A program made the translations under genes and the position numbers. The notes under the pieces are model-generated. The model was not told the DNA's origin. It searched no databases and saw nothing but the letters and a program-made list of their open reading frames with translations. From Oscillospiraceae bacterium (GTDB lineage: Bacteria > Bacillota > Clostridia > UMGS1840 > HGM11507), in contig SVKB01000011.1 of the NCBI GenBank assembly GCA_015068665.1, forward strand, positions 4,858-68,857: DNA of 64,000 nt, in the 5' to 3' direction. Shown piece after piece: positions 5,420 to 63,069 of this stretch (positions within the stretch are counted from its first letter, which is position 1; the number at the start of each line of letters is the position of its first letter).

Positions 5420-5448
5420 AAAAGCACTTCGTAAGAAGTGCTTTTTTC
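5420..5448 (+). terminator. Intrinsic terminator of the tRNA operon
   Basis: AGCACTTC-GTAA-GAAGTGCT followed by TTTTT. Confidence 0.75.
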
Positions 5449-5745
5449 AATGAAATAAATCCTTTCAGGATTTGTGAAATACCCTTCGGGCGTGAAATAT
5501 TGCTTCGCAATATGAAATACGCCTTCGGCGTGTGATAAAGGATTTATTTTATTTCACAGAAAACTTTAGTTTTCTATTTCACAATTTACGAAGTAAATTA
5601 TTTCATATCAACGAAGTTGATATTTCATTAAATATTGACAATTCCACCTGTATGAAATATTGCTTCGCAATATGAAAAGGCACTAAACAAAAATTGTTTA
5701 GTGCCCGTAAGCCCGCAGGCGTATAAATAGATACGTCAAGGGTTT
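5449..5745. repeat. TGAAAT/ATTTCA dyad bead array plus R-like hairpin
   Basis: The word TGAAAT occurs at 5451, 5475, 5493 and 5513 (degenerate TGATAA at 5533), each followed by a different small hairpin (AAATCC..GGATTT, CCCTTCGGG, ATTGCTTCGCAAT, ACGCCTTCGGCGT). ATTTCA then occurs at 5551, 5576, 5600 and 5623 with other hairpins. The 25-nt TGAAATATTGCTTCGCAATATGAAA is duplicated at 5653. Confidence 0.8.
5674..5705 (-). terminator. Probable intrinsic terminator of typA
   Basis: 12-bp perfect stem GGCACTAAACAA/TTGTTTAGTGCC (5679-5705), followed on the minus strand by TTTTC. Confidence 0.55.
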
Positions 5746-11398: not shown

Positions 11399-11872
11399 AA
11401 CCAGAAGTCAGGTGCGAAGGAAGGCAAGCATGACATATAAATGCAGAATTCAGAGTGCAGAATGCAAAATGATATGCCGCAGGCGGCATAGTGAATTGCA
11501 CCTTACGGTGCGTGAATTGTTATCTATTCGATAACATGAATTGATTTTTACAAATCATGAATTGTTGACTTATGTCAACATTAAGGATAGGACGGATATG
11601 CCATTCGGCATCCGTCCTTTTCTCGTTCCGCAGGAACATATCGAGTGCGAAGCACATATCGAGCAATTTTAATTGCATATCGAGTTTTGCCTTGGCAAAA
11701 CATATCGAAAATCCGAAGGATTTATATCTTATATCTCATCCCTCCTTTTCTTGTTCCGAAGGAACATATCGAGTGCGAAGCACATATCGAGCAATTTTAA
11801 TTGCATATCGAGTTTTGCTTTAGCAAAACATATCGAAAATCCGAAGGATTTATATCTTATATCTCATCCGCC
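11399..11872 (+). repeat. C composite repeat (AGGAA/TGCAGAAT words, TGAATTG bead array, P hairpin, tandem pair of CATATCGAG bead arrays)
   Basis: Starts at the tetR stop codon. TGAATTG occurs 4 times (11492-11570), separated by hairpins CACCTTACGGTG, TTATCTATTCGATAA, ATTTTTACAAAT and TTGACTTATGTCAA. P hairpin at 11589-11618 is followed by TTTTCTCG. The same composite recurs at 39831, 42364, 52326(-) and 62644(-). Confidence 0.85.
11618..11872 (+). repeat. Two tandem CATATCGAG bead arrays (period 128 nt)
   Basis: Each copy is hairpin TTCCNNNGGAA, CATATCGAG, TGCGAAGCA, CATATCGAG, CAATTTTAATTG, CATATCGAG, TTTTGCYTTRGCAAAA, CATATCGAA, AATCCGAAGGATT, then the tail ATATCTTATATCTCATCC. The first CATATCGAG is at 11637 in copy 1 and 11765 in copy 2. 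Confidence 0.85.
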
Positions 11873-15647: not shown

Positions 15648-15673
15648 GGGGCTGTAAATTTATTTACAGCCCC
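15648..15673 (-). terminator. Terminator hairpin GGGGCTGTAAAT-TT-ATTTACAGCCCC at the 3-prime end of S1
   Basis: 12-bp stem followed on the minus strand by TTTTTAT. The same hairpin occurs at 20147, 25006 and 53475. Confidence 0.7.
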
Positions 15674-15925
15674 TAAAACAATTCAGAGGGGATAGGAAAA
15701 AATCTTCAGAATGGATAAACTTAGCCAAAATCTTTGATTTTGGGTCACCCGAAGGCGTATTAGATACGTCGAGTGGCTAAGTTTATTCATAACCAAAAAC
15801 TTAAATTTTAAAGATTTTTCTAAAATCTTTACCTCTTTAATGGATAACTTGATAAGTTTCTCTATCAAAATCGTTGATACATCTTGTTTTTGGTGGTCTG
15901 GAGTTTTTTTACATTCCCGTTTTTA
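15674..15925 (-). repeat. S element copy 1 (body), 3-prime UTR of the 1291-aa gene
   Basis: Near-identical to 25032-25282 and inverse to 19870-20146. Contains nested hairpins (outer GGATAAACTTAGCC/GGCTAAGTTTATTC, AAAATCTTTGATTTT, CGTATTAGATACG, AGATTTTTCTAAAATCT, ACCAAAAAC..GTTTTTGGT). Confidence 0.85.
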
Positions 15926-19869: not shown

Positions 19870-20146
19870 AAAAATGGGGATGTAAAAAAACTCCAGACCA
19901 CCAAAAACAAGATTTATCAACGATTTTGATAGAGAAACTTATCAAATTAGCCGTCGAAGAGCTATCCGACGGCTAACTATTAAAAAGGTAAAGATTTTAG
20001 AAAAATCTTTAAAATTTAAGTTTTTGGTTATGAATAAACTTAGCCGCTCGACGTATCTAATACGCCTTCGGGTGACCCAAAATCAAAGATTTTGGCTAAG
20101 TTTATCCATTCTGAAGATTTTTTCCTATCCCCTCTGAATTGTTTTA
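19870..20146 (+). repeat. S element copy 2 (body), inverted relative to copies 1 and 3
   Basis: Reverse complement of the S1/S3 body. Carries an additional 22-nt TA-flanked palindrome at 19951-19972. Confidence 0.85.
19951..19972. mobile_element. Minimal TA-flanked palindromic insertion (fused MITE ends)
   Basis: TA-GCCGTCGAAGAGCTATCCGACGGC-TA. It is absent from the equivalent position of S1 and S3 (which have a single TTA there). Its sequence equals the outer part of the 52536-52809 MITE terminal repeats. Confidence 0.5.
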
Positions 20147-20182
20147 GGGGCTGTAAATAAATTTACAGCCCCATTTTTTATA
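20147..20182 (+). terminator. Terminator hairpin of S2 (GGGGCTGTAAAT-AA-ATTTACAGCCCC + ATTTTTTAT)
   Basis: The hairpin plus T-tract reads on the plus strand, convergent with the 1560-aa gene whose stop is at 20186. Confidence 0.6.
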
Positions 20183-25005: not shown

Positions 25006-25031
25006 GGGGCTGTAAATTTATTTACAGCCCC
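25006..25031 (-). terminator. Terminator hairpin at the 3-prime end of S3 (terminates rny transcript)
   Basis: GGGGCTGTAAATTTATTTACAGCCCC followed on the minus strand by TTTTTTATT. Confidence 0.7.
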
Positions 25032-25282
25032 TAAAACAATTCAGAGGGGATAGGAAAAAATCTTCAGAATGGATAAACTTAGCCAAAATCTTTGATTTTG
25101 GGTCACCCGAAGGCGTATTAGATACGTCGAGTGGCTAAGTTTATTCATAACCAAAAACTTAAATTTTAAAGATTTTTCTAAAATCTTTACCTTTTTAATG
25201 GTTAATTTGATAAGTTTCTCTATCAAAATCGTTGACACATCTTGTTTTTGGTGGTCTGGAGTTTTTTACATTCCCGTTTTTA
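25032..25282 (-). repeat. S element copy 3 (body), 3-prime UTR of rny
   Basis: Begins 1 nt after the rny stop codon. Its shadow ORF 25041..25238 differs from the S1 shadow ORF 15683..15868 at only 2 of 60 codons. Confidence 0.85.
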
Positions 25283-31479: not shown

Positions 31480-33144
31480 ATGTCTAAAAAAACACTTAAA
31501 ATAATACCGCTTGGCGGTCTTAACGAAATCGGTAAGAACATTACCGCTTTTGAGTATGGAAACGATATCATCGTTTTAGACTGCGGAATAGCCTTCCCGG
31601 ATGAGGAAATGCTGGGAATTGACCTGGTTATTCCCGACTTCAGTTATCTTATTAAAAACAAGGATAAGGTAAGAGCACTTGTTATCACTCACGGTCATGA
31701 GGACCATATAGGTGCAATTCCCTTCTTCTTAAAGGAAATAAATGTTCCCGTTTACGGAACAAGACTGACCTTAGGGCTTGTTGAGCATAAGCTTTATGAG
31801 CATAATATCCTGTCAACCACAAAGCTTAACAAGGTTTCGGCAGGAGATACGGTGCGATTCGGAGAAATCACCGTTGAATTTATACGAACAAACCACTCTA
31901 TTGCAGATGCCTGCGCCATAGCATTTCACACACCTGTCGGCATAATCCTTCACACAGGAGACTTTAAAATCGATCCAACACCCGTTACAGGTAAAATGCT
32001 TGACCTTGCAAGATTTGCAGAGCTGGGCAAACAGGGGATAACCCTATTGATGTCGGACAGCACCAATGCTGAAAGACAGGGCTACACCATGTCTGAAAGC
32101 ACCATCGGAGGAACCCTGGACGATATATTTATGCAGAATAAAAAGAGCAGAATAATCGTTGCCACTTTTGCTTCCAATATCCACCGTATGCAGCAGATTA
32201 TTGATGCGGCGCATAAAACGGGAAGAAAGGTTGCGGTTTCGGGAAGAAGTATGGAAAATATTCTTACCGTTGCAATAGAGCTTGGATATATGAAGGTGCC
32301 GCCCGGTGTGCTTGTGGATATAGATGCAATATCGAAATACAATAAAAACCAGACGGTTATAATTACTACAGGCTCCCAGGGTGAGCCCATGAGCGCCCTT
32401 TACCGTATGGCTTATTCCGACCATAAGAAAATTGAAATAACAAACGGTGATGTGGTAGTTGTTTCCGCATCCCCCATTCCGGGAAATGAAAAATTCATTT
32501 CAAGAGTAATAAACGAGCTTTTCCGCAAGGGGGCAAAGGTTATTTACGATGCCATGGCTGATATTCACGTTTCGGGCCATGCCTGTCAGGAAGAGCTGAA
32601 GCTTATTTTAGGTCTTTGCCAGCCTAAATATTTTATGCCGGTTCACGGTGAATACCGTCATCTTATAAAGCATAAGGAGCTTGCCGAAAAGGTGGGTATA
32701 AGTGAAAAGAATATTTTCATTGCCGATATAGGTAATATCCTTGAAATTTCGGGGAAAACCGCTAAGTTAAACGGCACCGTTACCTCGGGAAGAGTATTTG
32801 TGGACGGACTTGGCGTAGGTGATGTGGGTAATATCGTTATCCGTGACCGTAAGCACCTGTCTCAGTTCGGATTGCTTGTAATTGTTGTTACCATTTCTTC
32901 AACCGAGAAAAAGATAGTTGCAGGCCCCGATATTATTTCAAGAGGCTTTGTCTATGTAAGAGAAAGCGAAATGCTTATGCAGGGCGCAAAGGATATCTCT
33001 CTTGCAACCATTGAAAAATGTCTGTCCCGCGGTACGATTGACTGGTCCAGTATGAAGGCAGATGTAAGAAGTGAGGTTGCGGACTTTATATTTAAGGAAA
33101 CAAAGAGAAGACCGATGATATTGCCAGTGATAATGGAAGTCTGA
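31480..33144 (+). CDS. rnj: Ribonuclease J
   Basis: 554 aa. LKIIPLGGLNEIGKN, the metallo-beta-lactamase HGHEDHIGA motif and a beta-CASP region. Confidence 0.95.
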   Translation: MSKKTLKIIPLGGLNEIGKNITAFEYGNDIIVLDCGIAFPDEEMLGIDLVIPDFSYLIKNKDKVRALVITHGHEDHIGAIPFFLKEINVPVYGTRLTLGLVEHKLYEHNILSTTKLNKVSAGDTVRFGEITVEFIRTNHSIADACAIAFHTPVGIILHTGDFKIDPTPVTGKMLDLARFAELGKQGITLLMSDSTNAERQGYTMSESTIGGTLDDIFMQNKKSRIIVATFASNIHRMQQIIDAAHKTGRKVAVSGRSMENILTVAIELGYMKVPPGVLVDIDAISKYNKNQTVIITTGSQGEPMSALYRMAYSDHKKIEITNGDVVVVSASPIPGNEKFISRVINELFRKGAKVIYDAMADIHVSGHACQEELKLILGLCQPKYFMPVHGEYRHLIKHKELAEKVGISEKNIFIADIGNILEISGKTAKLNGTVTSGRVFVDGLGVGDVGNIVIRDRKHLSQFGLLVIVVTISSTEKKIVAGPDIISRGFVYVRESEMLMQGAKDISLATIEKCLSRGTIDWSSMKADVRSEVADFIFKETKRRPMILPVIMEV

Positions 33145-33967
33145 AAGTAAAAAGCGTAAAAAAAGCGTTAAAATTCCCCGGACCATGCAAAGCAATATAT
33201 ATATAAAGAAAGCGATGTACTTATTCCGTAATTAAATGTTAAAGGCGCTTGATAAAATAAGGAATAAATCGCAAAGCGATTTATGGAATTAAAAGCTTTG
33301 CATTTTGAACGAAAATCCCCTCTCGATGTATTTAATACACCTTCGGGTGATTTTCGTTCAATCCAAGAAATTTTTCCTGCTTTTCGTTTGATATTGGCGG
33401 CATCGAGCCACCAATATCAAAAAAAGCGTAAAATCAACAAACCATGTAAAGCAAAATAATATAAATAGAAAATGTGTCTGTATCATATACAGGCACATTT
33501 ATTTGTAGTTTACATTACTATATTAAGGTATAAATTTGCAAGCAAATTTATGAATTTAAATGCTTTGCGTTATAAATGAAACCAGCCATCTGAGAGTTAT
33601 CAAAATTCGTTTTTTAAAAAATTCCAACGGAACCTATATCGCTTTAAAATTGTGATTTTTCAAGGCGGAAGGCTTTGGTAATACGAGGTATGCCAAAGGC
33701 GACAACGAAGAAAAAGCCTATTTTTAAGTGATATAGACGGATTTGGATAGCTCTTAGATGGCTGCAGATGTATCTCATACACCTTCGGGTGATTTTCGTT
33801 CAATCCAAGAAATTTTTCTTATCTTTCGTTTGATATTGGCGGCATCGAGCCACCAATATCAAAAAAGCGTAAATTCAACAAACCATGCAAAGCAAAATAA
33901 TATAAATAGAAAATGGGCGTGTCTCAATAAGTGATTTTTCACTCAATCGAGGCAACGCCCTTTGCTT
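33145..33967 (+). repeat. T-unit composite (three T-type units, R junction modules, one embedded MITE)
   Basis: Units start with AAAAAGCGT(T)AAAAT at about 33149, 33421 and 33863. They contain the 14-bp hairpin AAATGTGTCTGTAT-CAT-ATACAGGCACATTT (33470-33500), AAATTTGCAAGCAAATTT, an R junction (33309-33357) and the GCATCGAGCC-loop hairpin (33379-33427, 33826-33870). Confidence 0.8.
33583..33764. mobile_element. MITE-like element with 27-nt terminal inverted repeats (23/27 match)
   Basis: Left end CAGCCATCTGAGAGTTATCAAAATTCG. Reverse complement of the right end CAGCCATCTAAGAGCTATCCAAATCCG. It interrupts an R module (compare the intact copy at 62195-62241). Its interior is homologous in inverse orientation to 52565-52680. 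Confidence 0.55.
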
Positions 33968-37211: not shown

Positions 37212-38593
37212 CAAATAAGGAAGAACTTTTATTAATGAAAAGGGAGCAGGGCTACGATTCGGTAACCCAGTCACAGAAAAAGAAGATTTTCGATTTTTCC
37301 GAGGGCTATAAGGAATTTATAGGAAGGGCAAAAACCGAAAGAGTTTTTGTTAAAGACACAATTGAACTTCTAAAAAAGGAAGGCTTTAAGAAATTTTCTC
37401 CCGATATGAAATTAAAGCAGGGAGACAAGGTATATTTTGAAAACAGAAAAAGAGCTCTGATTGCAGTAAAAATGGGTAAAAAAAGCTTAAGTGAAGGGGT
37501 AAGTATGATAGGTGCGCATATTGACTCACCAAGACTTGACTTAAAGCCGATTCCCCTGTATGAGGCTGAAAATACCCTTTATATCAAAACCCACTATTAC
37601 GGCGGAATTAAAAAATATCAGTGGCCTGTAATTCCGCTTTCAATGTTCGGTACGGTTGCTCTTAAAAACGGTAAAACCGTTGATATTGTTATAGGCGAAG
37701 ACGAAAAGGATCCGATTTTCGTTATTACCGATATTCTTCCACATCTCGGAAATACCCAGTACAAGAAAACTCCTGCCGAGATTATCCATCCCGAACAGCT
37801 TAATGCTATCGGCGCTACCATTCCTTATGAGGATAAGGAGGCTTCGGGCAGAGTAAAATTAAACTTTCTAAATATTATCAATAAGAAATATAATATTACC
37901 GAGGAGGATTTTATTTCCGCGGAAATAACTCTTGTTCCTGCTCTTAAGCCAAGGGATGCGGCTATTGATTCAAGCCTTGTTGCCGCTTACGGTCAGGATG
38001 ACAGGGTTTGTGCATACACAGGTCTTATGGCACTTCTTGACTCTAAGGAAGAAGCAAAAACCCAGCTTCTTTTGCTTTCGGATAAGGAAGAGGTAGGCTC
38101 AATGGGAAATACCGGTATGCAGTCAAAATTCTTCGAATTCACATTAGAAGCACTTTGCGAAAATCAGGGAGTAAAATTAAGAGAGGCCCTGTGGAATACC
38201 GAATGTTTATCAGCCGATGTTTGTGCCGCTTATGACCCTAATTTCCCCGAAGTTTATGAAAAGAACAACTCGGTGTTCTTAAACGGAGGCGTTTCTCTTA
38301 TGAAATATTCGGGTGCAAGGGGTAAATCGGGCACCTCGGATGCAAGCGCAGAGCTTTTGGGAAAAATAAGAGGTCTTTTTGATAAGGCTTCGGTTAAATG
38401 GCAGATTGGCGAGCTTGGAAAAACCGATGAAGGCGGCGGCGGAACAATTGCACAGTTCGTGGCAAACCTGGGATGTGAGGTAATCGACTGCGGAGTTGCC
38501 CTTCTTTCAATGCACTCACCCTATGAGGTTGCTTCAAAGTATGATATTTATATGACATATAAGGCATATAAAACCTTTTTTGAAAAAGCATAG
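37208..38593 (+). CDS. M18 family aminopeptidase
   Basis: About 461 aa. GAHIDSPRLDLKP, DDRVCAY, DKEEVGS and LSMHSP motifs of aspartyl/M18 aminopeptidases. The alternative ATG at 37199 is also possible. Confidence 0.85.
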   Translation: MTNKEELLLMKREQGYDSVTQSQKKKIFDFSEGYKEFIGRAKTERVFVKDTIELLKKEGFKKFSPDMKLKQGDKVYFENRKRALIAVKMGKKSLSEGVSMIGAHIDSPRLDLKPIPLYEAENTLYIKTHYYGGIKKYQWPVIPLSMFGTVALKNGKTVDIVIGEDEKDPIFVITDILPHLGNTQYKKTPAEIIHPEQLNAIGATIPYEDKEASGRVKLNFLNIINKKYNITEEDFISAEITLVPALKPRDAAIDSSLVAAYGQDDRVCAYTGLMALLDSKEEAKTQLLLLSDKEEVGSMGNTGMQSKFFEFTLEALCENQGVKLREALWNTECLSADVCAAYDPNFPEVYEKNNSVFLNGGVSLMKYSGARGKSGTSDASAELLGKIRGLFDKASVKWQIGELGKTDEGGGGTIAQFVANLGCEVIDCGVALLSMHSPYEVASKYDIYMTYKAYKTFFEKA

Positions 38594-38935
38594 CCTTCTT
38601 AATGAGGAGAAGGTGTCAGCGATAGCTGACGGATGAGATATAAGATATAAATCCTTCGGATTTTCGATATGTTTTGCTAAAGCAAAACTCGATATGTGCT
38701 TCGCACTCGATATGTTGTCTTGCGACAACGAGACAGGTAGGGGCGTTTATTACCGCCCGAAAGCCCTCCTTGCCTAAAGGAGGGGGGACCGCTTTAGCGG
38801 TGGGAGGATTTTTGAAAAGGTGTAATATAAATCCCTATGGGATTTTCGATATGTTTTGCTAAAGCAAAACTCGATATGTGCTTCGCACTCGATATGTTCC
38901 TTTGGAACTCGATATGTTCCTTCGGAACGAGATAA
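38593..38935 (-). repeat. V module, two CATATCGAG bead arrays (inverse orientation) and a GC-rich W5 module forming the whole aminopeptidase-era spacer
   Basis: V at 38593-38637 overlaps the TAG stop. Array 1 is at 38631-38733 and array 2 at 38821-38935; both lack the CAATTTTAATTG unit. W5 at 38740-38828 equals the inverse of 42621-42700. Confidence 0.85.
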
Positions 38936-38948
38936 AAGGAGAGCTAAA

Positions 38949-39830: not shown

Positions 39831-40281
39831 TTTGAAAATCAGGAATTAGGAATGAAGTAAGGCAAGCATGACATATAAATGCAGAATTCAGAGTGCAGAA
39901 TGCAGAATGATATGCCGCAAGCGGCATAGTGAATTGCACCTTTCGGTGCATGAATTGTTATCAGCTTGATAACATGAATTGATTTTTACAAATCATGAAT
40001 TGTTGACTTATGTCAACATTAAGGATAGGACGGATATGCCCGAAAGTGGTTAATGAATTTAGTTGCAGTATCATATTTCTTTTTATTTAATGGACTACAC
40101 TTCATTACACCTCATCCGAGTTGCTATGCAACCCACCTTCTCCTCAAGGAGAAGGCTTTGGCATCCGTCCTTTTCTCGTTGCCGAAAGGCAACATATCGA
40201 GTGCGAAGCACATATCGAGCAATTTTAATTGCATATCGAGTTTTGCTTTAGCAAAACATATCGAAAATCCCAAAGGGATTT
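39831..40281 (+). repeat. C composite repeat starting at the era stop codon, with P hairpin split by an insertion
   Basis: AGGAAT and TGCAGAAT words, then TGAATTG 4 times. P left arm at 40027-40040 and P right arm at 40160-40171. Complete 5-hairpin CATATCGAG array at 40171-40281. Confidence 0.85.
40041..40159. repeat. 119-nt insertion in the loop of the P hairpin, carrying a V module (40108-40156)
   Basis: Intact P elsewhere reads GGACGGATATGCC-ATTC-GGCATCCGTCC. Here the arms are separated by sequence ending in CACCTCATCCG-AGTTGCTATGCAAC-CCACCTTCTCCTCAAGGAGAAGGC. Confidence 0.7.
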
Positions 40282-42965: not shown

Positions 42966-43262
42966 AGCTCCGCTTTGCAAAGTCCGGGGAATTTTACATC
43001 TTTTTTATGGCGGTGGCTCGATGCCTCCGCCATAAAACGAAAGATAGGAAAAATTTCTTGGATTGGACGAAAATCACCCGAAGGTGTATTAAATACATCG
43101 AGAGGGGATTTTCGTTCAAAATGCAAAGCTTTTAATTCCATAAATCGCTTTGCGATTTATTCCTTATTTTATCAAGTGCCTTTAACATTTAATTACGGTA
43201 TAAGTACATCGCTTTCTTTATATATATTGCTTTGCATGGTCCGGGGAATTTTTACATCTTTC
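42966..43262 (-). repeat. T-type unit, inverse near-copy of 33170-33430, ending 5 nt from the stop of the 904-aa gene
   Basis: Contains an R junction (43067-43115) and a GCATCGAGCC-loop hairpin with an altered but still complementary stem (43003-43037). Confidence 0.8.
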
Positions 43263-49659: not shown

Positions 49660-51930
49660 ATGAAAAGAAAATTACCCTTTTTAAAAAAATTGAATATTAA
49701 TTTTAATAAAAAAGGTGTGTTCAGATATTTTCTTATTACTTATATGTTAGTATTTATGGTGCCGGCTCTGATAAGCTTTGTTATGCTTGCCGGTGCCCTT
49801 GATACAGCTAAAAACGAAGCTGCTGAGAAAAACCTTATTATTTCTCAGCAGTTTAAATATTCAGCGGAACAAATTTTAATAAGGCTGGAAAATATCAGAG
49901 CAAGAGTTATTTCGGATAAGGAGCTTACGGGCTTAAATTATGAAACCGAAAACATTACCACCCCCGAGCGCTACCGCCTTACAGGGGATATAAAAAGACT
50001 AAATGACTGTATTCTTACGGAAAACGATTTTATCGGAAGCATCTATCTTTACAGAAACGATAAAAATATTGCAATGGGAACGGCAGGTCTTTTTTCACTT
50101 GAAAGGCTCTACCGTACAGGCTTTTCGGGCTCAGACCTTCCCTACGGACGGCTTTATGACAGGCTAAGCCTTTCAGAAAGCTTCTATATTCCGTATCGGG
50201 AGCTTAATATAAACGGAATTTATGAGGACAGTATTTTATGCATTCTCCCGATTGAAAAGGGAGTATATCTTACCGACTGGACACATATTATTATGACCTT
50301 ACCGAAATCCCGTTTTGCAGGTAAGATAAAAACCGAAAAGGAAAATGCGGATATCCTTATTCTTGATAAGGAAAATAAAATTATTCCCCTTTACGGAAAG
50401 TGTGAGGGCTTAAGCCTTGACTACAGCTATTTTAAAAAGGATAAAACGGTTTACACCGATAAGAAAAGGGGAGCGGTTATAACCTGTTTAAGCTCAGAGC
50501 TTACCGACTGGAAGTATATAATGATAGAGCCTGATTCATCTTATTTAGGAAGGGTTCACCGTCTGTGGGGCTTTATTCTTTTTGGCTTTATCCTTGCCCT
50601 TCTTGCAGGAATGTTTATCATTTTTATATTTTCCAAACGGAACTATGAAAAGATAAGAAGCATTGCCGACCTTTTCGGGAAAAATGATACTGAAGCAAAC
50701 GAGCTTCAGTATATAAACGAGAATATATTAAAATCCATGGGCGAACGAGCCGAGCTTATAAAACTTAAGGAAAAAACCGGTGCCGATAAGGAAGAAGAAA
50801 AAATAAGAGAGCTTTTAAGAGGAGTTAAGTTTGAGAATTTAACCGACAAGGCATATCTTGACGAGCTTTCGGATCTGTTTGAGGGGGATAAGGTAAGAGT
50901 TATTGCCCTTTATCCCGAGAATACCCACGAGCTTTATTTCGGTGCTGATATTTCAGCCTCAGAAAAAGAGGAGGAAACCGCCTTTATTATAAGGAATACT
51001 GCCTCGGAGGAGCTTAGGGGAAAATCGGTCGTAATTGATGGAATTATTGCCCTTATTCTTGATAAAGCGTATAGCGATGAAGCTCTTTACGGTAAAATAA
51101 GAGATCTTATTGATATTTATAAAAAGCATTTTAACCTTACTGTAAGTGCAGGCATCGGAGGTGCCCAGTGGGGGGCAGGAAGTCTTAAAAGGGCTTATGT
51201 AACCGCCCGTAAGGCATTGGAATATAAATTTATTTCGGGTAAAGGAAGCATAAACCTTTGGGACGAGGTTTCCAAAAAAAATTCAGGGTTCAGCTATCCG
51301 CCCGAAACCGAGCAAAAGCTTATTAACTGTGTAAAATCGGGAAGCTTTAAGGATGCGAGCGCTATTACCGAGGAAATATTCAAAACTAATTTTATAGAAA
51401 GTCAGCCTTCGGTGGAAATGGCAAAATGCCTTATCTTCAACCTGGAGGGTACAGTTTTAAAAACGGTTCCCAAGGACACGGACGGAGAATATAAGCTTGA
51501 TACCGCCTTCATAAGCGAGCTTCTTACCCCGGAAAATATATGGGAAATAAAAAACTATTTGATAAAAATACTTGAAAAAATATGCGAATATAATCAAAGT
51601 CAGCTTTCTGATAATGCAGGAGCTGTTTCGGAGAAAATAAGCAGGTTCATAGCTGAAAGGTGCTGTGATCCTCAGCTTAATATAAGCCTTATTGCAGAGC
51701 ATTTTTCCCTTTCGGGAGCTTATATCTCAAAGCTTTTTAAGGAAAGCCGCGGAACAAGCATCCTGGACTTTATTCACACCGAAAGATTAAAAAAAGCAAA
51801 GGAGCTTTTAAAATCGGGAAAATCCGTTTCCGAGGTTGCTCTGGCTACGGGATACAGTAACTCCAATGTGTTTATCAGAGTATTTAAAAAATACGAAAGG
51901 GTAACACCGGGTCAGTTTATCAAAATGTAG
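49660..51930 (+). CDS. Membrane-anchored AraC-family transcriptional regulator with extracytoplasmic sensor region
   Basis: 756 aa with two TM segments (about aa 22-44 and 300-322). C-terminal AraC HTH (LNISLIAEHFSLSGAYISKLFKE...ATGYSNSNVFIRVFKKYERVTPGQF). Confidence 0.8.
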   Translation: MKRKLPFLKKLNINFNKKGVFRYFLITYMLVFMVPALISFVMLAGALDTAKNEAAEKNLIISQQFKYSAEQILIRLENIRARVISDKELTGLNYETENITTPERYRLTGDIKRLNDCILTENDFIGSIYLYRNDKNIAMGTAGLFSLERLYRTGFSGSDLPYGRLYDRLSLSESFYIPYRELNINGIYEDSILCILPIEKGVYLTDWTHIIMTLPKSRFAGKIKTEKENADILILDKENKIIPLYGKCEGLSLDYSYFKKDKTVYTDKKRGAVITCLSSELTDWKYIMIEPDSSYLGRVHRLWGFILFGFILALLAGMFIIFIFSKRNYEKIRSIADLFGKNDTEANELQYINENILKSMGERAELIKLKEKTGADKEEEKIRELLRGVKFENLTDKAYLDELSDLFEGDKVRVIALYPENTHELYFGADISASEKEEETAFIIRNTASEELRGKSVVIDGIIALILDKAYSDEALYGKIRDLIDIYKKHFNLTVSAGIGGAQWGAGSLKRAYVTARKALEYKFISGKGSINLWDEVSKKNSGFSYPPETEQKLINCVKSGSFKDASAITEEIFKTNFIESQPSVEMAKCLIFNLEGTVLKTVPKDTDGEYKLDTAFISELLTPENIWEIKNYLIKILEKICEYNQSQLSDNAGAVSEKISRFIAERCCDPQLNISLIAEHFSLSGAYISKLFKESRGTSILDFIHTERLKKAKELLKSGKSVSEVALATGYSNSNVFIRVFKKYERVTPGQFIKM

Positions 51931-52325
51931 AAAAGCATTAAAATTCCCCGGACCACGCAAAGCAAAATAATATAAAGAGTAAAATGTGTCTGTATCATAT
52001 ACAGGCACATTTATTTATAGTTTACATTACTATATTAAGGTATAAATTTGCAAGCAAATTTATGAATTAAAAGCTTTGCGTTTTGAACGAAATCAGCCAC
52101 TCGACGTACTTAGTACGCCTTCGGGTTCCACCCCTTCGGGGCTGAATTCGTCCAATCCAAGAAATTTTTTCTGCTTTTCGTTTGATATTGGCGGCATCGA
52201 GCCACCAATATCAAAAAAAGCGTTAAATCGACAAACCATACAGAGCAAAATAGTATAAATAGTAAATGTGTCTGTATCATATACAGGCACATTTTGTTTT
52301 AGTATACATTACTATATTAAGGTAT
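51931..52325 (+). repeat. Two T-type units starting at the stop codon of the AraC-type gene
   Basis: AAAAGCATTAAAATTCCCCGGACCACGCAAAGC. 14-bp hairpins at 51982-52012 and 52264-52294. R junction with an extra CCCCTTCGGGG hairpin at 52087-52151. GCATCGAGCC-loop hairpin at about 52174-52220. Confidence 0.8.
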
Positions 52326-52899
52326 AAATCCTTCGGATTGTCGATATGTTTTGCTAAAGGCAAAACTCGATATGCAATTAAAATTGCTCGATATGTGCTT
52401 CGCACTCGATATGTTGCCTTTCGGCAACAAGAAAAAAGGACGGATGCCGAATGGCATATCCGTCCTATCCTTAATGTTGACATAAGTCAACAATTCATGA
52501 TTTTTTTAAAATCAATTCATGTTATCGAATTGATAGCCGTCGGAGAGCTATCCGAACTCGCCTCAAACCCTTAAAAATAGGCTTTTTCTTTGTTGTCGGT
52601 TTCGATATACCTTGTATTATCAAAACCTTCCGCCTTGAAAAATCACAATTTTAAAGGGTTATAGGTTCTATAAGAATTTTTAAATTAGGAAATTTTTAGA
52701 TAGAATGAGGCAAAAACGCAGGTAATATTTCGGATATTACCGAGGATTTTAACGATATTATATCAAAAATTTACAATTTAAAAACGAGTTCGGATAACTT
52801 TCCGACGGCTACCAATTCACGCACCGCAAGGTGCAATTCACTATGCCGCTTGCGGCATATCATTCTGCATTCTGCACTCTGAATTCTGCATTTATAATT
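52326..52899 (-). repeat. C composite repeat (inverse), co-oriented with and abutting the stop of the HAD gene, interrupted by a MITE
   Basis: On the plus strand: a complete 5-unit CTCGATATG array at 52326-52437, P at 52437-52467, then the CAATTCA array interrupted at 52536-52809, then ATTCTGCA words up to 52899. Confidence 0.85.
52536..52809. mobile_element. MITE-like element, ~25-nt terminal inverted repeats, flanked by TA
   Basis: TA-GCCGTCGGAGAGCTATCCGAACTCG ... CGAGTTCGGATAACTTTCCGACGGC-TA (2 mismatches). It is inserted in the loop/arm of the GTTATC..GATAAC hairpin, which is intact at 62838-62856 and 11519-11536. No ORF inside. Confidence 0.6.
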
Positions 52900-61174: not shown

Positions 61175-62037
61175 ACTTTAAAAGAGCAAAAACAATACTT
61201 ATAGTTATCTTCCTGTTCGTCAATATATTTTTAATTGTAATTAACAATCTTTTCTATGAATCGGATATAACAGTTGATACAAAAACAGTTATCAGCATTC
61301 TGTCAAAATCGGGAATCTCGCTTAATGAGGATATTTTAAAGGAATATCCGGTCTCGGTTCCAAGAGTTGAAGTTGAAAATGTTGCTGCCGATGAAAATAA
61401 GCTTGCTACCCTGCTTTTAGGTAAAGGCTATAACAGCTCCAAGGAGCATTACTACTCGGGCGAGGGTGCAGCCCTTACCGTCAGTGAGCTTTCGGTTGAC
61501 TACAAGGTGGTTGAGCCCAAGGATAAATCCTTTAAGGATATAAGCCCCTTAAATGCAGGCAATAAGGCACTGAAAAAGCTTAATAAAAAGGGAATTGGTG
61601 AATCGGCACTTGAGGTTGAGAATATTTCCGATAACGGAAACAATAACTACTATGTAACTCTTTCTTATAAGTTTGAGGAATATCCCCTTTTCAATAATCA
61701 TCTCTATGTAACTGTTACCGACAGGGGAATTCTTGCAATGAAGGGTACTGTTATTGATTTTAATGAAATAAAAAACGAGGATTATAAAATAATCCCCGCC
61801 GCAAACATACTTCTCGAGCTTCCTTCCAACCCCGATTTAAAGAATGTGGATAAAAATCCTGAAGTAACGGGCATCCGACTGGGATATTTCCTGCCTATGG
61901 GTAAAGGGGAAGCATCAATCTATGCAATTCCCGCCTATGAGATTGAGATAAGCAATAAAAAAATTTATTACTATGATGCCAGGGAAAATATAAGCTCGGA
62001 TGTAATATTGTTGGGAAGCATAAACGCCATCAAGTAA
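61171..62037 (+). CDS. YycI-like regulatory accessory protein
   Basis: 288 aa. GTGA overlap with the preceding gene. The N-terminus NFKRAKTILIVIFLFVNIFL resembles YycI. Confidence 0.55.
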   Translation: MNFKRAKTILIVIFLFVNIFLIVINNLFYESDITVDTKTVISILSKSGISLNEDILKEYPVSVPRVEVENVAADENKLATLLLGKGYNSSKEHYYSGEGAALTVSELSVDYKVVEPKDKSFKDISPLNAGNKALKKLNKKGIGESALEVENISDNGNNNYYVTLSYKFEEYPLFNNHLYVTVTDRGILAMKGTVIDFNEIKNEDYKIIPAANILLELPSNPDLKNVDKNPEVTGIRLGYFLPMGKGEASIYAIPAYEIEISNKKIYYYDARENISSDVILLGSINAIK

Positions 62038-62317
62038 AAAAGCGTAAAAATTACCCAGACCACGCAAAGCAAAATAATATAAATAGTAAATGTGTCTGTA
62101 TAATATACAGGCACATTTATTTATAGTTTACATTAATAAATTAAGGTATAAATTTGCAAGCAAATTTATGTTTTTAAATGCTTTGCGTTATAAATGAAAA
62201 ACACCTCTCGATGTATCTCATACACCTTCGGGTGTTTTTCATTTATTCCAGGAAATTTTTCCTGCTTTTCGTTTGATATTGGCGGCATCGAGCCACCAAT
62301 ATCAAAAAAAGCGTTAA
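62038..62317 (+). repeat. T-type unit starting at the yycI-like stop codon
   Basis: AAAAAGCGTAAAAATT... 14-bp hairpin at 62088-62118, AAATTTGCAAGCAAATTT, R junction at 62195-62241 (outer stem TGAAAAAC/GTTTTTCA), GCATCGAGCC-loop hairpin at about 62264-62312. Confidence 0.8.
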
Positions 62318-62575
62318 AATTCCCCGGACTTTGCAAAGCGGAGCTTTGCAGTTTTATTCGCCTTACGGCGAGTGATATTTGCTGTTAGCAAGTGATATTG
62401 CTGCGCAGTGGTATTGTGCTTCGCACAGCTTAATAAAGGCGGATAAAATACCACTGAAACCGTCAGGTTTCAATAACACTTTTGATTTATCAAAAATATC
62501 ACTCCGTACAAGGTACGGAATAACACTAATGTTAAAGGCGCTTGATAAAATAAGGAATAAATCGCAAAGCAAAAT
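62318..62575 (+). repeat. GTGATAT dyad bead array (Q)
   Basis: GTGATAT at 62372 and 62392, GTGGTAT at 62408. Then ATAACAC at 62473, ATATCAC at 62496 and ATAACAC at 62520. All intervening hairpins differ from one another. Confidence 0.85.
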
Positions 62576-62643: not shown

Positions 62644-62978
62644 AAGATATAAATCATTCGGATTTTCGATATGTTTTGCTAAAGCAAAACTCGATATGCA
62701 ATTAAAATTGCTCGATATGTGCTTCGCACTCGATATGTTCCTTCGGAACGAGAAAAGGACGGATGCCGAATGGCATATCCGTCCTATCCTTAATGTTGAC
62801 ATAAGTCAACAATTCATGATTTGTAAAAATCAATTCATGTTATCAAGCTGATAACAATTCATGCACCGCAAGGTGCAATTCACTATGCCACTTGCGACAT
62901 ATCATTTTGCATTCTGCACTCTGAATTCTGCATTTATATGGCTTGCCGGCCTTCATTCCTCATTCCTGATTTTAAAAT
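62644..62978 (-). repeat. C composite repeat (inverse), uninterrupted reference copy
   Basis: On the plus strand: 5-unit CTCGATATG array, P at 62755-62785, CAATTCA 4 times, ATTCTGCA words, CATTCCT words. Confidence 0.85.
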
Positions 62979-63069
62979 GTTCTTCATTTGCCATTTGCAA
63001 TTTCCCCTTGCTATTTCACCCGTTTTATGCTACTATGAGAATGAATAAATATAAGTGGTGGAATTTGGT

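What the first reader, a model, noticed from the sequence alone, without database searches (positions are those of the whole stretch)
62035..62060. T units, C composites and S elements start at or within a few nt of stop codons and are co-oriented with the upstream gene
- T units begin 0-8 nt after the stops of rnj (33144), the AraC-type gene (51930), the yycI-like gene (62037) and, on the minus strand, the 904-aa gene (43268). All four are co-oriented with the upstream gene.
- C composites begin at the stops of tetR (11398), era (39830) and the HAD gene (52900, minus). That is 3 of 5 copies.
- S1 and S3 begin 1-4 nt after the stops of the 1291-aa gene and rny.
- A V module overlaps the TAG of the aminopeptidase (38593).

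This pattern fits either a 3-prime-UTR function (RNA stabiliser or terminator cassette) or insertion targeting of gene ends. The sample is small.
Basis: seen in the sequence. Interest (0 to 1): 0.6.

Follow-up and report, generated by a model that had tools for sequence, protein, structure and literature searches.

The report
Repeat cassettes occupying the terminator slot
In this uncultured gut or rumen Clostridia genome, large folded DNA repeats sit directly after the stop codons of unrelated genes because they stand in or before the gene's transcription terminator, a repeat family that no catalogue searched here lists and that behaves like a swappable gene-end module.

Summary

**Position.**
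- 36 of 43 independent T/S element heads lie within 25 nt after the stop of a co-oriented gene. Random placement predicts 1.8.
- None lies between divergent genes.
- C composites show the same closeness to stops (10 of 21 against 0.7 expected).
- A second species and a second genus repeat the pattern.

**Why there.** Ordinary terminators in this genome also start a median 14 nt after the stop.
- Every element type contains an intrinsic terminator or a terminator-like hairpin.
- Orthologous genes in sister species keep their stop codon but carry different cassettes there: a plain terminator, a heptamer tract plus terminator, a T unit or an S element.
- At five comparable loci the S cassette stands where the sister species has a plain terminator.
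- One T unit is a clean 271-nt gain or loss bounded by the direct repeat AAAAAAAGCG.

**Orientation.** Co-orientation is strict only for T (12:0 in informative regions). S occurs both ways (about 6:4), always with one end against a stop.

**Reading.** These are mobile, polar 3'-end cassettes, probably read as the gene's 3' UTR. How they spread and what the RNA does are inferred.

Earlier notes on this same genome had already seen the stop-codon adjacency. No look-alike on other DNA turned up in the scan's notes.

The parts
62035..62037 (+). TAA stop of the yycI-like gene. The stop position is conserved in sister species.
62038..62303 (+). T unit directly after the yycI stop. Its closing helix P0 starts at +1 (AAAAGC pairs with GCTTTT). 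It is absent from G001, G002, G003 and G004.
62085..62121 (+). hp1, a terminator-like hairpin plus T tract inside the left arm of the T unit.
62304..62339 (+). Second T head, followed by a Gut-1-like hairpin array.
62745..62990 (-). C composite forming the inverted distal arm of the yycI spacer. Its head lies 98 nt from the start of the next gene, not at a stop.
33145..33415 (+). Stuttered AAAAAGCGT cores and the first T unit after the rnj stop (33142-33144). A T element is also present after rnj in G001; G002 and G004 have a plain terminator there.
33416..33960 (+). Second T unit (with an inserted element), a third head, and a closing terminator hairpin.
51931..52209 (+). T unit 1 nt after the TAG of the AraC-type gene.
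43003..43262 (-). T unit (AAGATG-type closing helix) 7 nt after the stop of the 904-aa gene.
15648..15918 (-). S1 cassette: branched body plus its own terminator (15648-15673). The model start is 10 nt after the stop of the 1291-aa gene.
25006..25275 (-). S3 cassette 8 nt after the rny stop. It is present in all three same-species metagenome contigs read out of 16 that carry this exact rny protein. G001 has a plain terminator there.
19877..20172 (+). S2, the inverted exception. Its terminator end lies 13 nt from the stop of the 1560-aa gene, and its head abuts the -35 box of the 1291-aa gene's promoter.
11399..11625 (+). C composite starting at the tetR stop: heptamer leader, hairpin array, and a terminator-like hairpin (AGGACGGATATGCC..GGCATCCGTCCT plus T tract).
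39831..40040 (+). C composite starting at the era stop. G001 has a T head plus terminator there, and G004 has a heptamer tract plus terminator.
52810..52899 (-). C composite head 2 nt after the HAD gene stop.
38592..38640 (+). V module hairpin overlapping the TAG of the aminopeptidase gene.

Best explanation
T, S and C are copies of modular, strongly folded 3'-end cassettes that occupy the slot where a gene's intrinsic terminator normally sits. In this genus that slot starts a few to about 15 nt after the stop codon.

**Build (shown).**
- A T or S cassette is polar. A closing helix (P0) forms its 5' edge.
- A branched body of 230-260 nt follows.
- S carries an intrinsic terminator at its 3' end. 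T carries a terminator-like hairpin inside the unit.
- C is a heptamer leader and hairpin array ending in a terminator-like hairpin.

**Placement (shown).** Copies stand where a sister species has a plain terminator, or in front of a terminator. The reading frame and stop codon stay intact.

**Consequences (inferred).**
- The body is transcribed as the 3' UTR of the upstream gene.
- T is tolerated only in the gene's orientation.
- S is tolerated in both orientations because its terminator is a perfect palindrome.
- None is tolerated near promoters.

**Spread (inferred).** Units copy in by recombination or template switching, either at the A tract and T tract that flank terminators or at a short core such as AAAAAAAGCG.

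**Possible RNA role (untested).** P0 starts inside the footprint of a terminating ribosome, so the body may couple translation termination to 3'-end structure. Candidate roles are protection of the mRNA 3' end or REP-like damping of translation.
For: **Position and region type.**
- 36 of 43 T/S heads lie within 25 nt after a co-oriented stop, against 1.8 expected. None is in a divergent spacer.
- Ordinary terminators of repeat-free genes start a median 14 nt after the stop, 40% of them within 10 nt.

**Terminators inside the cassettes.**
- The S terminator GGGGCTGTAAATAAATTTACAGCCCC has 23 copies. About 17 are S-adjacent and 3 more keep the S linker.
- In convergent spacers both cassette ends lie 2-15 nt from the two stops.
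- The yycI spacer has 7 terminator-like sites against 0.9 expected, 6 of them on the gene's strand.

**Orthologue survey.**
- C-termini and stops are conserved while the slot differs between species.
- Example, rny: S in G000, a plain terminator in G001, heptamers plus terminator in G002, heptamers plus R module in G004.

**Filled and empty pairs.**
- At C16:76970, C1:43833, C23:28606, C42:59430 and C23:118457 the S cassette stands where G001 has a plain terminator, and homology resumes at or after the T tract. At C4:7316 the S body sits in front of a shared terminator.
- At upp, G000 equals G001 plus one 271-nt T unit between AAAAAAAGCG repeats.

**Fold.**
- The closing helix covaries in at least 9 types.
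- In the consensus fold, G-U pairs outnumber A-C pairs 51:17, which points to the sense strand.

**Constraint.** In orthologous T units of G000 and G001 the head is 86% identical (195 of 226). Four-fold degenerate sites of the adjacent genes are 47% identical.

**Orientation.**
- It follows the gene, not replication: 10 of 33 stop-adjacent copies lie on the lagging-like strand.
- T is 12:0 co-oriented in tandem regions.
Against: - Co-transcription and the real 3' ends are therefore inferred.
- In many T units the terminator-like hairpin hp1 lies between the two strands of the covarying helices P0 and P1. If hp1 terminated efficiently, the full fold could not form on the gene's mRNA.
- No target duplication or catalytic enzyme was found for S. 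No empty site was found within the species. One-step replacement therefore cannot be told apart from insertion followed by deletion of the old terminator.
- Heads sit closer to stops than ordinary terminators do (median 6 against 14 nt, P 9e-6). The terminator slot alone does not fully explain this.
- In G001, three heads abut the start of a divergent gene.
- The gene calls come from my own simple caller.
Confidence: 0.55

Rival explanations
1. The elements are purely selfish, non-autonomous mobile elements (MITE-like) with a target preference for the 5' flank of terminator hairpins. They sit after stops only because that is where their target is and where insertions do no harm. The fold serves transposition, as single-stranded DNA or as transposase-binding ends, and has no role for the host gene.
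For: - S copies are nearly identical at 15 or more unrelated loci, and none of about 10 S sites is shared with G001.
- Presence is patchy between species.
- One unit-sized gain or loss has a 10-nt direct repeat at its ends.
- The P0 helix amounts to imperfect terminal inverted repeats.
- S is found in both orientations.
Against: - The ends covary in at least 9 complementary types. Ends that must bind one transposase should stay constant.
- G-U pairs outnumber A-C pairs 51:17, which favours a strand-specific fold.
- T is 12:0 co-oriented.
- The orthologous T heads are 86% identical between G000 and G001, against 47% at four-fold sites, and the stretch from the stop through hp1 at the sigA locus is about 93% identical.
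- No matching transposase was found. The single Y1 transposase gene is flanked by a different repeat, and no reverse transcriptase or IS110-type enzyme was detected.
Confidence: 0.25
2. The elements are dedicated cis-acting RNA regulators, and their function requires them to start within about 15 nt of the stop. Terminating ribosomes would melt the closing helix, as with REP sequences that damp translation, or the C-rich head (UUCCCC or ACUCC) would pair with Shine-Dalgarno regions. Selection for that function, not insertion preference, would set the position.
For: - The closing helix starts 0-13 nt after the stop, closer than ordinary terminators (median 6 against 14 nt).
- Head sequence is conserved across species.
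- The fold looks sense-strand specific.
Against: - S works in the genome in both orientations, with the terminator rather than the head at the stop.
- In G001, era ends inside the head. The carrier genes share no function.
- Sister species do without the element at most orthologous sites.
- No expression data are available.
Confidence: 0.15
3. Co-orientation with genes is a by-product of strand-specific single-strand transposition tied to the replication fork (IS200/IS605 or REP/RAYT style), because most genes point with replication.
For: - 84% of genes follow the local GC skew.
- One RAYT-like Y1 transposase gene is present.
Against: - 10 of 33 stop-adjacent elements lie on the lagging-like strand and still follow their gene.
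- Plus-strand and minus-strand copies alternate within the 64-kb window.
- The Y1 gene is flanked by an unrelated 26-copy repeat.
Confidence: 0.03
4. The pattern arises by chance, or because spacers are short.
For: The genome is compact (90% coding by my calls).
Against: - 36 observed against 1.8 expected, with each head placed at random within its own spacer.
- Repeats begin a median 17 nt from stops but end a median 100 nt from starts.
Confidence: 0.01

Closest known systems
REP/BIME elements of enterobacteria and pseudomonads, including REPs within 15 nt of a stop codon that damp translation
   Same: - Intergenic, hairpin-forming and high in copy number.
- Concentrated at gene 3' ends inside transcription units, many within a ribosome footprint of the stop (PMC12306157).
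- Mosaic combination of modules.
   Different: - REPs are 20-40-nt single palindromes with a GTAG or CGTC tag, tied to a RAYT gene.
- Here the units are 230-285 nt and multi-branched, contain an intrinsic terminator or a terminator-like hairpin, and stand where sister species have a plain terminator.
- The one RAYT-like gene is flanked by a different repeat.
bcr1-bcr3 interspersed repeats of the Bacillus cereus group (MITE-like)
   Same: Firmicute intergenic repeats of 100-400 nt that fold, show mobile-element traits and are often part of UTRs or operon spacers (PMC3446304).
   Different: - The passages of PMC3446304 read here place bcr repeats in 5' and 3' UTRs and operon spacers alike, with no rule of starting at the stop.
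- No sequence or Rfam similarity was found here.
- Terminator replacement is not mentioned in those passages.
Correia elements of Neisseria and other MITEs that bring terminators or processing sites
   Same: Small non-coding mobile units that are co-transcribed with neighbours and can supply transcription signals (my own knowledge of the family).
   Different: - Correia elements have fixed terminal inverted repeats and a TA duplication, and they insert in both orientations in many contexts.
- T/S ends covary.
- No duplication was seen for S.
- T is strictly polar.
Gut-1 RNA motif (Rfam RF01706)
   Same: - Found in the same genomes and the same spacers.
- Gut-1-like hairpin arrays follow the T heads (46.5 bits at 62349-62419; 70.2 bits at 5448-5523).
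   Different: The T and S bodies themselves give no Gut-1 match. Gut-1 describes only the hairpin-and-linker arrays.
Integron attC sites and class C group II introns that home next to terminators
   Same: - Structured sites found directly behind reading frames (attC).
- Homing that reads a terminator hairpin (class C introns). Both points are from my own knowledge.
- Discrete units gained or lost at a short core.
   Different: - The carrier genes are housekeeping genes in place, not cassettes.
- No integrase or reverse transcriptase was found.
- The elements lie before, or instead of, the terminator rather than after it.

Membership tests
REP/BIME (RAYT-associated) | Short (20-40 nt) imperfect palindrome with a conserved GTAG or CGTC tag | tested here: not met
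   Units are 230-285 nt and multi-branched. The head core is GTWAAAA..CCRGACC.
REP/BIME (RAYT-associated) | A single-copy Y1 (RAYT) gene flanked by the same repeats | tested here: not met
   One PF01797 gene lies at G000:C16:42538-43284. It is flanked by GACAAGGGGACGGTTCTGTTGTC repeats (26 copies), not by T or S.
REP/BIME (RAYT-associated) | Location in 3' or intercistronic spacers, absent from promoter regions | tested here: met
   0 of 43 heads lie in divergent spacers, and 36 of 43 lie just after stops.
MITE (cut-and-paste, non-autonomous) | Conserved terminal inverted repeats | tested here: inconclusive
   The ends are complementary (P0 helix), but they occur in at least 9 covarying sequence types rather than one conserved end.
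MITE (cut-and-paste, non-autonomous) | Target-site duplication of fixed length | tested here: inconclusive
   A 10-nt direct repeat AAAAAAAGCG flanks the T unit at upp. None was seen at five S replacement sites.
MITE (cut-and-paste, non-autonomous) | Filled and empty sites between related genomes | tested here: met
   Seen at upp (T unit), at yycI and rny, and at 10 or more further loci between G000 and G001, G002 or G004.
Intrinsic (Rho-independent) terminator | G+C-rich hairpin followed by a T tract on the gene's strand, just downstream of the stop | tested here: met
   S: 12-pair stem plus TTTTTAT. T hp1 and other sites: 7 found against 0.9 expected. Function in the cell was not tested.
Gut-1 RNA (RF01706) | Score at or above the Rfam gathering threshold (50 bits) | tested here: not met
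   The T and S bodies give no match. Neighbouring hairpin arrays score 46.5, 24.4 and 22.7 bits. Only 5448-5523 passes, at 70.2 bits.
IS200/IS605-type single-strand elements (PATE) | Orientation tied to the replication strand | tested here: not met
   10 of 33 stop-adjacent copies lie on the lagging-like strand and follow the gene.
Any Rfam family (ribozymes, sRNAs, cis-regulators) | Covariance-model match | tested here: not met
   Only sub-threshold hits were found: RsaE at 32.9 of 79 bits on the S tail plus terminator, and rli36 at 28.3 of 50 bits.
bcr1 (Bacillus cereus group) | Sequence similarity to the ~155-bp bcr1 consensus with a TTTAT duplication | not tested
   No bcr1 sequence was at hand. 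The resemblance is by kind only.

The most novel reading that the evidence does not exclude
T units, and perhaps the whole superfamily, may be discrete cassettes exchanged at a short core sequence directly behind stop codons. An as yet unknown site-specific mechanism would read the core by base pairing with a complementary stretch inside the unit. The closing helix P0a fits this: AAAAGC pairs with GCTTTT, AAGAT with ATCTT, GGAGAT with ATCTCC, and so on. That would make it an integron-like or guide-directed exchange system for 3' UTR and terminator modules rather than for genes.
Probability: 0.12. Interest if true: 0.85.

Novelty: new variant of a known kind. Interest (0 to 1): 0.55.

Why it matters
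- **Gene ends as a site of turnover.** If this reading holds, the short stretch between stop codon and terminator is a hot spot of modular turnover in a whole group of gut and rumen Clostridia. Orthologous housekeeping genes (rnj, rny, era, sigA, upp) carry different 3' modules in sister species. That would make 3' UTRs and terminators a fast-evolving, horizontally exchangeable layer of gene control.
- **A natural test set.** The elements offer structured RNAs placed at 0-15 nt from stops. They could be used to test how terminating ribosomes, 3' structure and mRNA decay interact in Firmicutes.
- **A practical point.** These repeats break metagenome assemblies exactly at gene ends. They can also produce chimeric contigs.

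Tried and rejected
- **Empty sites within the species.** Exact-protein look-ups for rnj, yycI and rny returned contigs that all carry the element. No polymorphism was found.
- **Rfam.** Searches at the gathering threshold and at permissive E-values gave no family for the T or S bodies.
- **Replication-strand bias.** Rejected by GC skew.
- **Transposase candidates in the own genome.** There is one Y1 gene, tied to another repeat. No RVT_1 or IS110 DEDD domain was found.
- **The element supplies the stop codon.** True only for era in G001. Elsewhere the native C-terminus and stop are conserved.
- **The S terminator is a local add-on.** Rejected for this genome, because the terminator travels with S.
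- **Heptamer tracts as a separate positional test.** The result was only moderately informative: 48 tracts face a stop and 16 face a start.
- **Literature.** No description of this family was found. Only the REP and bcr analogies came up.

Full report
**Setting.** The window is G000:C47:4858-68857 of a 2.21-Mb, 38% G+C draft genome in 48 contigs. Its nearest public relative is a MAG titled only 'Clostridia bacterium'. Same-species contigs come from JGI and ENA metagenome assemblies. The spacers of the window are packed with shared modules.

**1. The listed cases.** I read each junction.
- T heads (..AAAAGCGTWAAAATTCCCCGGACCAYGCAAAGC..) follow four stops: yycI-like (TAA 62035-62037), the AraC-type gene (TAG 51928-51930), the 904-aa gene (TAA 43270-43268, minus strand) and rnj (TGA 33142-33144). 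The distances are 1, 1, 7 and 17 nt. In rnj the gap is filled by stuttered AAAAAGCGT copies.
- S1 and S3 follow the 1291-aa gene and rny.
- S2 is inverted.
- C composites start at the tetR, era and HAD stops.
- The V module begins inside the aminopeptidase TAG.

T and S are one superfamily. They share the head core GTWAAAA..CCRGACC, the R module and the same helices. P1 reads GCAAAGC/GCTTTGC in T and CAAAAAC/GTTTTTG in S.

**2. Genome-wide test.** I called 1,833 genes with a codon-usage caller. Stop positions do not depend on the choice of start codon. I searched the genome with profile HMMs built from the window copies.
- Of 56 T/S heads, 43 are the first in their spacer and strand. 30 lie within 10 nt and 36 within 25 nt after a co-oriented stop.
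- Placing each head at random within its own spacer predicts 0.77 and 1.81 (Poisson P about 1e-33).
- Twenty are in convergent spacers, 23 in tandem spacers and none in divergent spacers (P 7e-7 against spacer length).
- C composites: 10 of 21 lie within 25 nt (0.70 expected), and 16 of 21 are in convergent spacers.

A family-blind test gives the same picture. DNA repeated in three or more other spacers makes up 61% of convergent, 27% of tandem and 5% of divergent spacer. It begins a median 17 nt from stops but ends a median 100 nt from starts.

The pattern recurs elsewhere. In G001, 12 of about 19 heads follow a stop. In G008, a different genus, 7 of 10 do.

**3. Orientation.** Orientation is informative only where both neighbours point the same way.
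- T is 12:0 co-oriented there (10:0 without paralogous duplicates, P 0.001).
- S is about 6:4 and C is 1:4.
- In inverted S copies the terminator end, not the head, lies 6-15 nt from the stop. C copies in tandem spacers are mostly the inverted far arm of a two-armed composite whose near arm is a T array.
- Replication bias does not explain this. 84% of genes follow the local GC skew, yet 10 of 33 stop-adjacent elements lie on the lagging-like strand and still follow their gene.

**4. What the slot is.**
- In repeat-free genes the first terminator-like hairpin starts a median 14 nt after the stop, and 40% start within 10 nt. So structures that start right after stops are the norm here. The elements are somewhat closer still (median 6 nt, P 9e-6).
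- Every element type contains an intrinsic terminator or a terminator-like hairpin. S ends in GGGGCTGTAAATAAATTTACAGCCCC plus a T tract. Of its 23 copies, about 17 are S-adjacent and 3 more keep the S linker.
- In convergent spacers both ends of the S cassette lie 2-15 nt from the two stops.
- T units hold a hairpin plus T tract (hp1, 62085-62121). The yycI spacer has 7 terminator-like sites against 0.9 expected, 6 of them on the gene's strand.

**5. Comparison with sister species.** I fetched the 3' flanks of orthologues of 35 element-bearing genes from three congeners, in addition to rnj, yycI and HAD.
- C-termini and stop positions are conserved, while the slot differs between species.
  - rny: S in G000, a plain terminator in G001, heptamers plus terminator in G002, heptamers plus R module in G004.
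  - era: a C composite in G000; a T head plus terminator in G001, where the ORF ends in the head's TAA; heptamers plus terminator in G004.
- T elements are shared by G000 and G001 at rnj, sigA, a GNAT gene, C12:13091 and C34:99024. None of about 10 S sites is shared.
- At C16:76970, C1:43833, C23:28606, C42:59430 and C23:118457 the S cassette stands where G001 has a plain terminator, and homology resumes at or after the T tract. At C4:7316 the S body sits in front of a terminator shared by both species.
- At upp, G000 equals G001 plus one 271-nt T unit bounded by AAAAAAAGCG on both sides.
- Same-species metagenome contigs all carry the elements.

**6. Structure and constraint.**
- The element is a closed fold. 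The 5-7 nt before GTWAAAA pair with the tail after TTTTTCC in at least 9 complementary types. Examples are AAAAGC/GCTTTT, GAAAGAT/ATCTTTC, GGAGAT/ATCTCC, AAAGGGG/CCCCTTT, GGGGAT/ATCCCC, AAAAATC/GATTTTT and GAAAGGC/GCCTTTC.
- In the RNAalifold consensus of 43 distinct copies, G-U pairs outnumber A-C pairs 51:17. That favours the sense strand.
- In orthologous T units of G000 and G001 the head is 86% identical (195 of 226). At sigA the stretch from the stop through hp1 is about 93% identical. Four-fold degenerate sites of the adjacent genes are 47% identical.
- No Rfam family fits.

**7. Reading.**
- *Shown:* position, polarity, terminator content, replacement of or insertion before plain terminators, patchy distribution, one clean unit-sized gain or loss, and covarying ends.
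- *Inferred:* co-transcription with the upstream gene, spread by recombination or template switching at the A and T tracts or at the AAAAAAAGCG core, and any RNA role.
- The start of P0 lies inside the footprint of a terminating ribosome. [quoted passage not shown]

**Open points**.
- hp1 lies between the strands of covarying helices.
- How S replaces a terminator so exactly is unknown.
- The core repeat may be a target duplication, a recombination core or a guide target.

Noticed in passing
G000:C16:42538-43284 (outside the window): A single-copy RAYT-like Y1 transposase gene (249 aa, PF01797). It is flanked on both sides by its own hairpin repeat GAGACAAGGGGACGGTTCTGTTGTCTTGAC, which has 26 copies in the genome and is unrelated to T or S.
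   Followed up: partly
G000:C8:7856-7999, C8:13865-14008 and C12:5552-5695 (outside the window): A 48-aa peptide gene (MKNYIKPSIDVLKIAPEVTIAAGLEDWMMGNELSAESNITTFEYISE) occurs three times. Each copy is followed at +1 or +2 by a T array. It could be a duplicated small-peptide locus.
   Followed up: no
window 39831-39860, 11399-11440 and 52870-52899; loci L047, L049, L090, L115, L126, L128: Tracts of 7-nt units (AATnnnR, for example AATCAGG AATTAGG AATGAAG or AATGCAG repeated) run from the stop to a terminator hairpin in four species. The number of units differs between species.
   Followed up: partly
loci L003, L004, L049, L090, L115 and L128 (G002 and G004): Terminators of different genes share a conserved loop (ATGCTATACAGC or ATACCATACGGT) while their stems differ. 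This looks like a terminator family with exchangeable stems.
   Followed up: no
locus L037:3868-4385: A metagenome contig joins yycI plus its T unit to the azlC promoter. In G000 and G001 that promoter follows the T array of sigA. This is either an assembly chimera or recombination across T units.
   Followed up: partly
locus L092 (G001, era 3' end): The era reading frame runs two codons further than in G000 (..QEENR*) and stops at the TAA inside a T head (CGT TAA AAT TCA CC). Here the element supplies the stop codon.
   Followed up: partly
window 38594-38948; loci L094, L104 and L105: The aminopeptidase and era genes are 14 nt apart in G002 and G004. In G000 and G001 they are separated by hairpin arrays (355 nt in G000), which suggests an insertion inside what looks like an operon.
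   Followed up: no
locus L045 (G002, yycI 3' end) and L127: Another repeat (GAACCTCACGAAAA..CACAATAA, about 80 nt, tandem) starts exactly at the yycI stop in G002 and also occurs after a GNAT gene. It is a different family showing the same positional habit.
   Followed up: no
loci L054, L076 and L081 (G001): Three S-type heads lie about 20-30 nt from the ribosome-binding site and start codon of a divergent gene. That places them antisense within a 5' region, and they are exceptions to the stop-codon rule.
   Followed up: no
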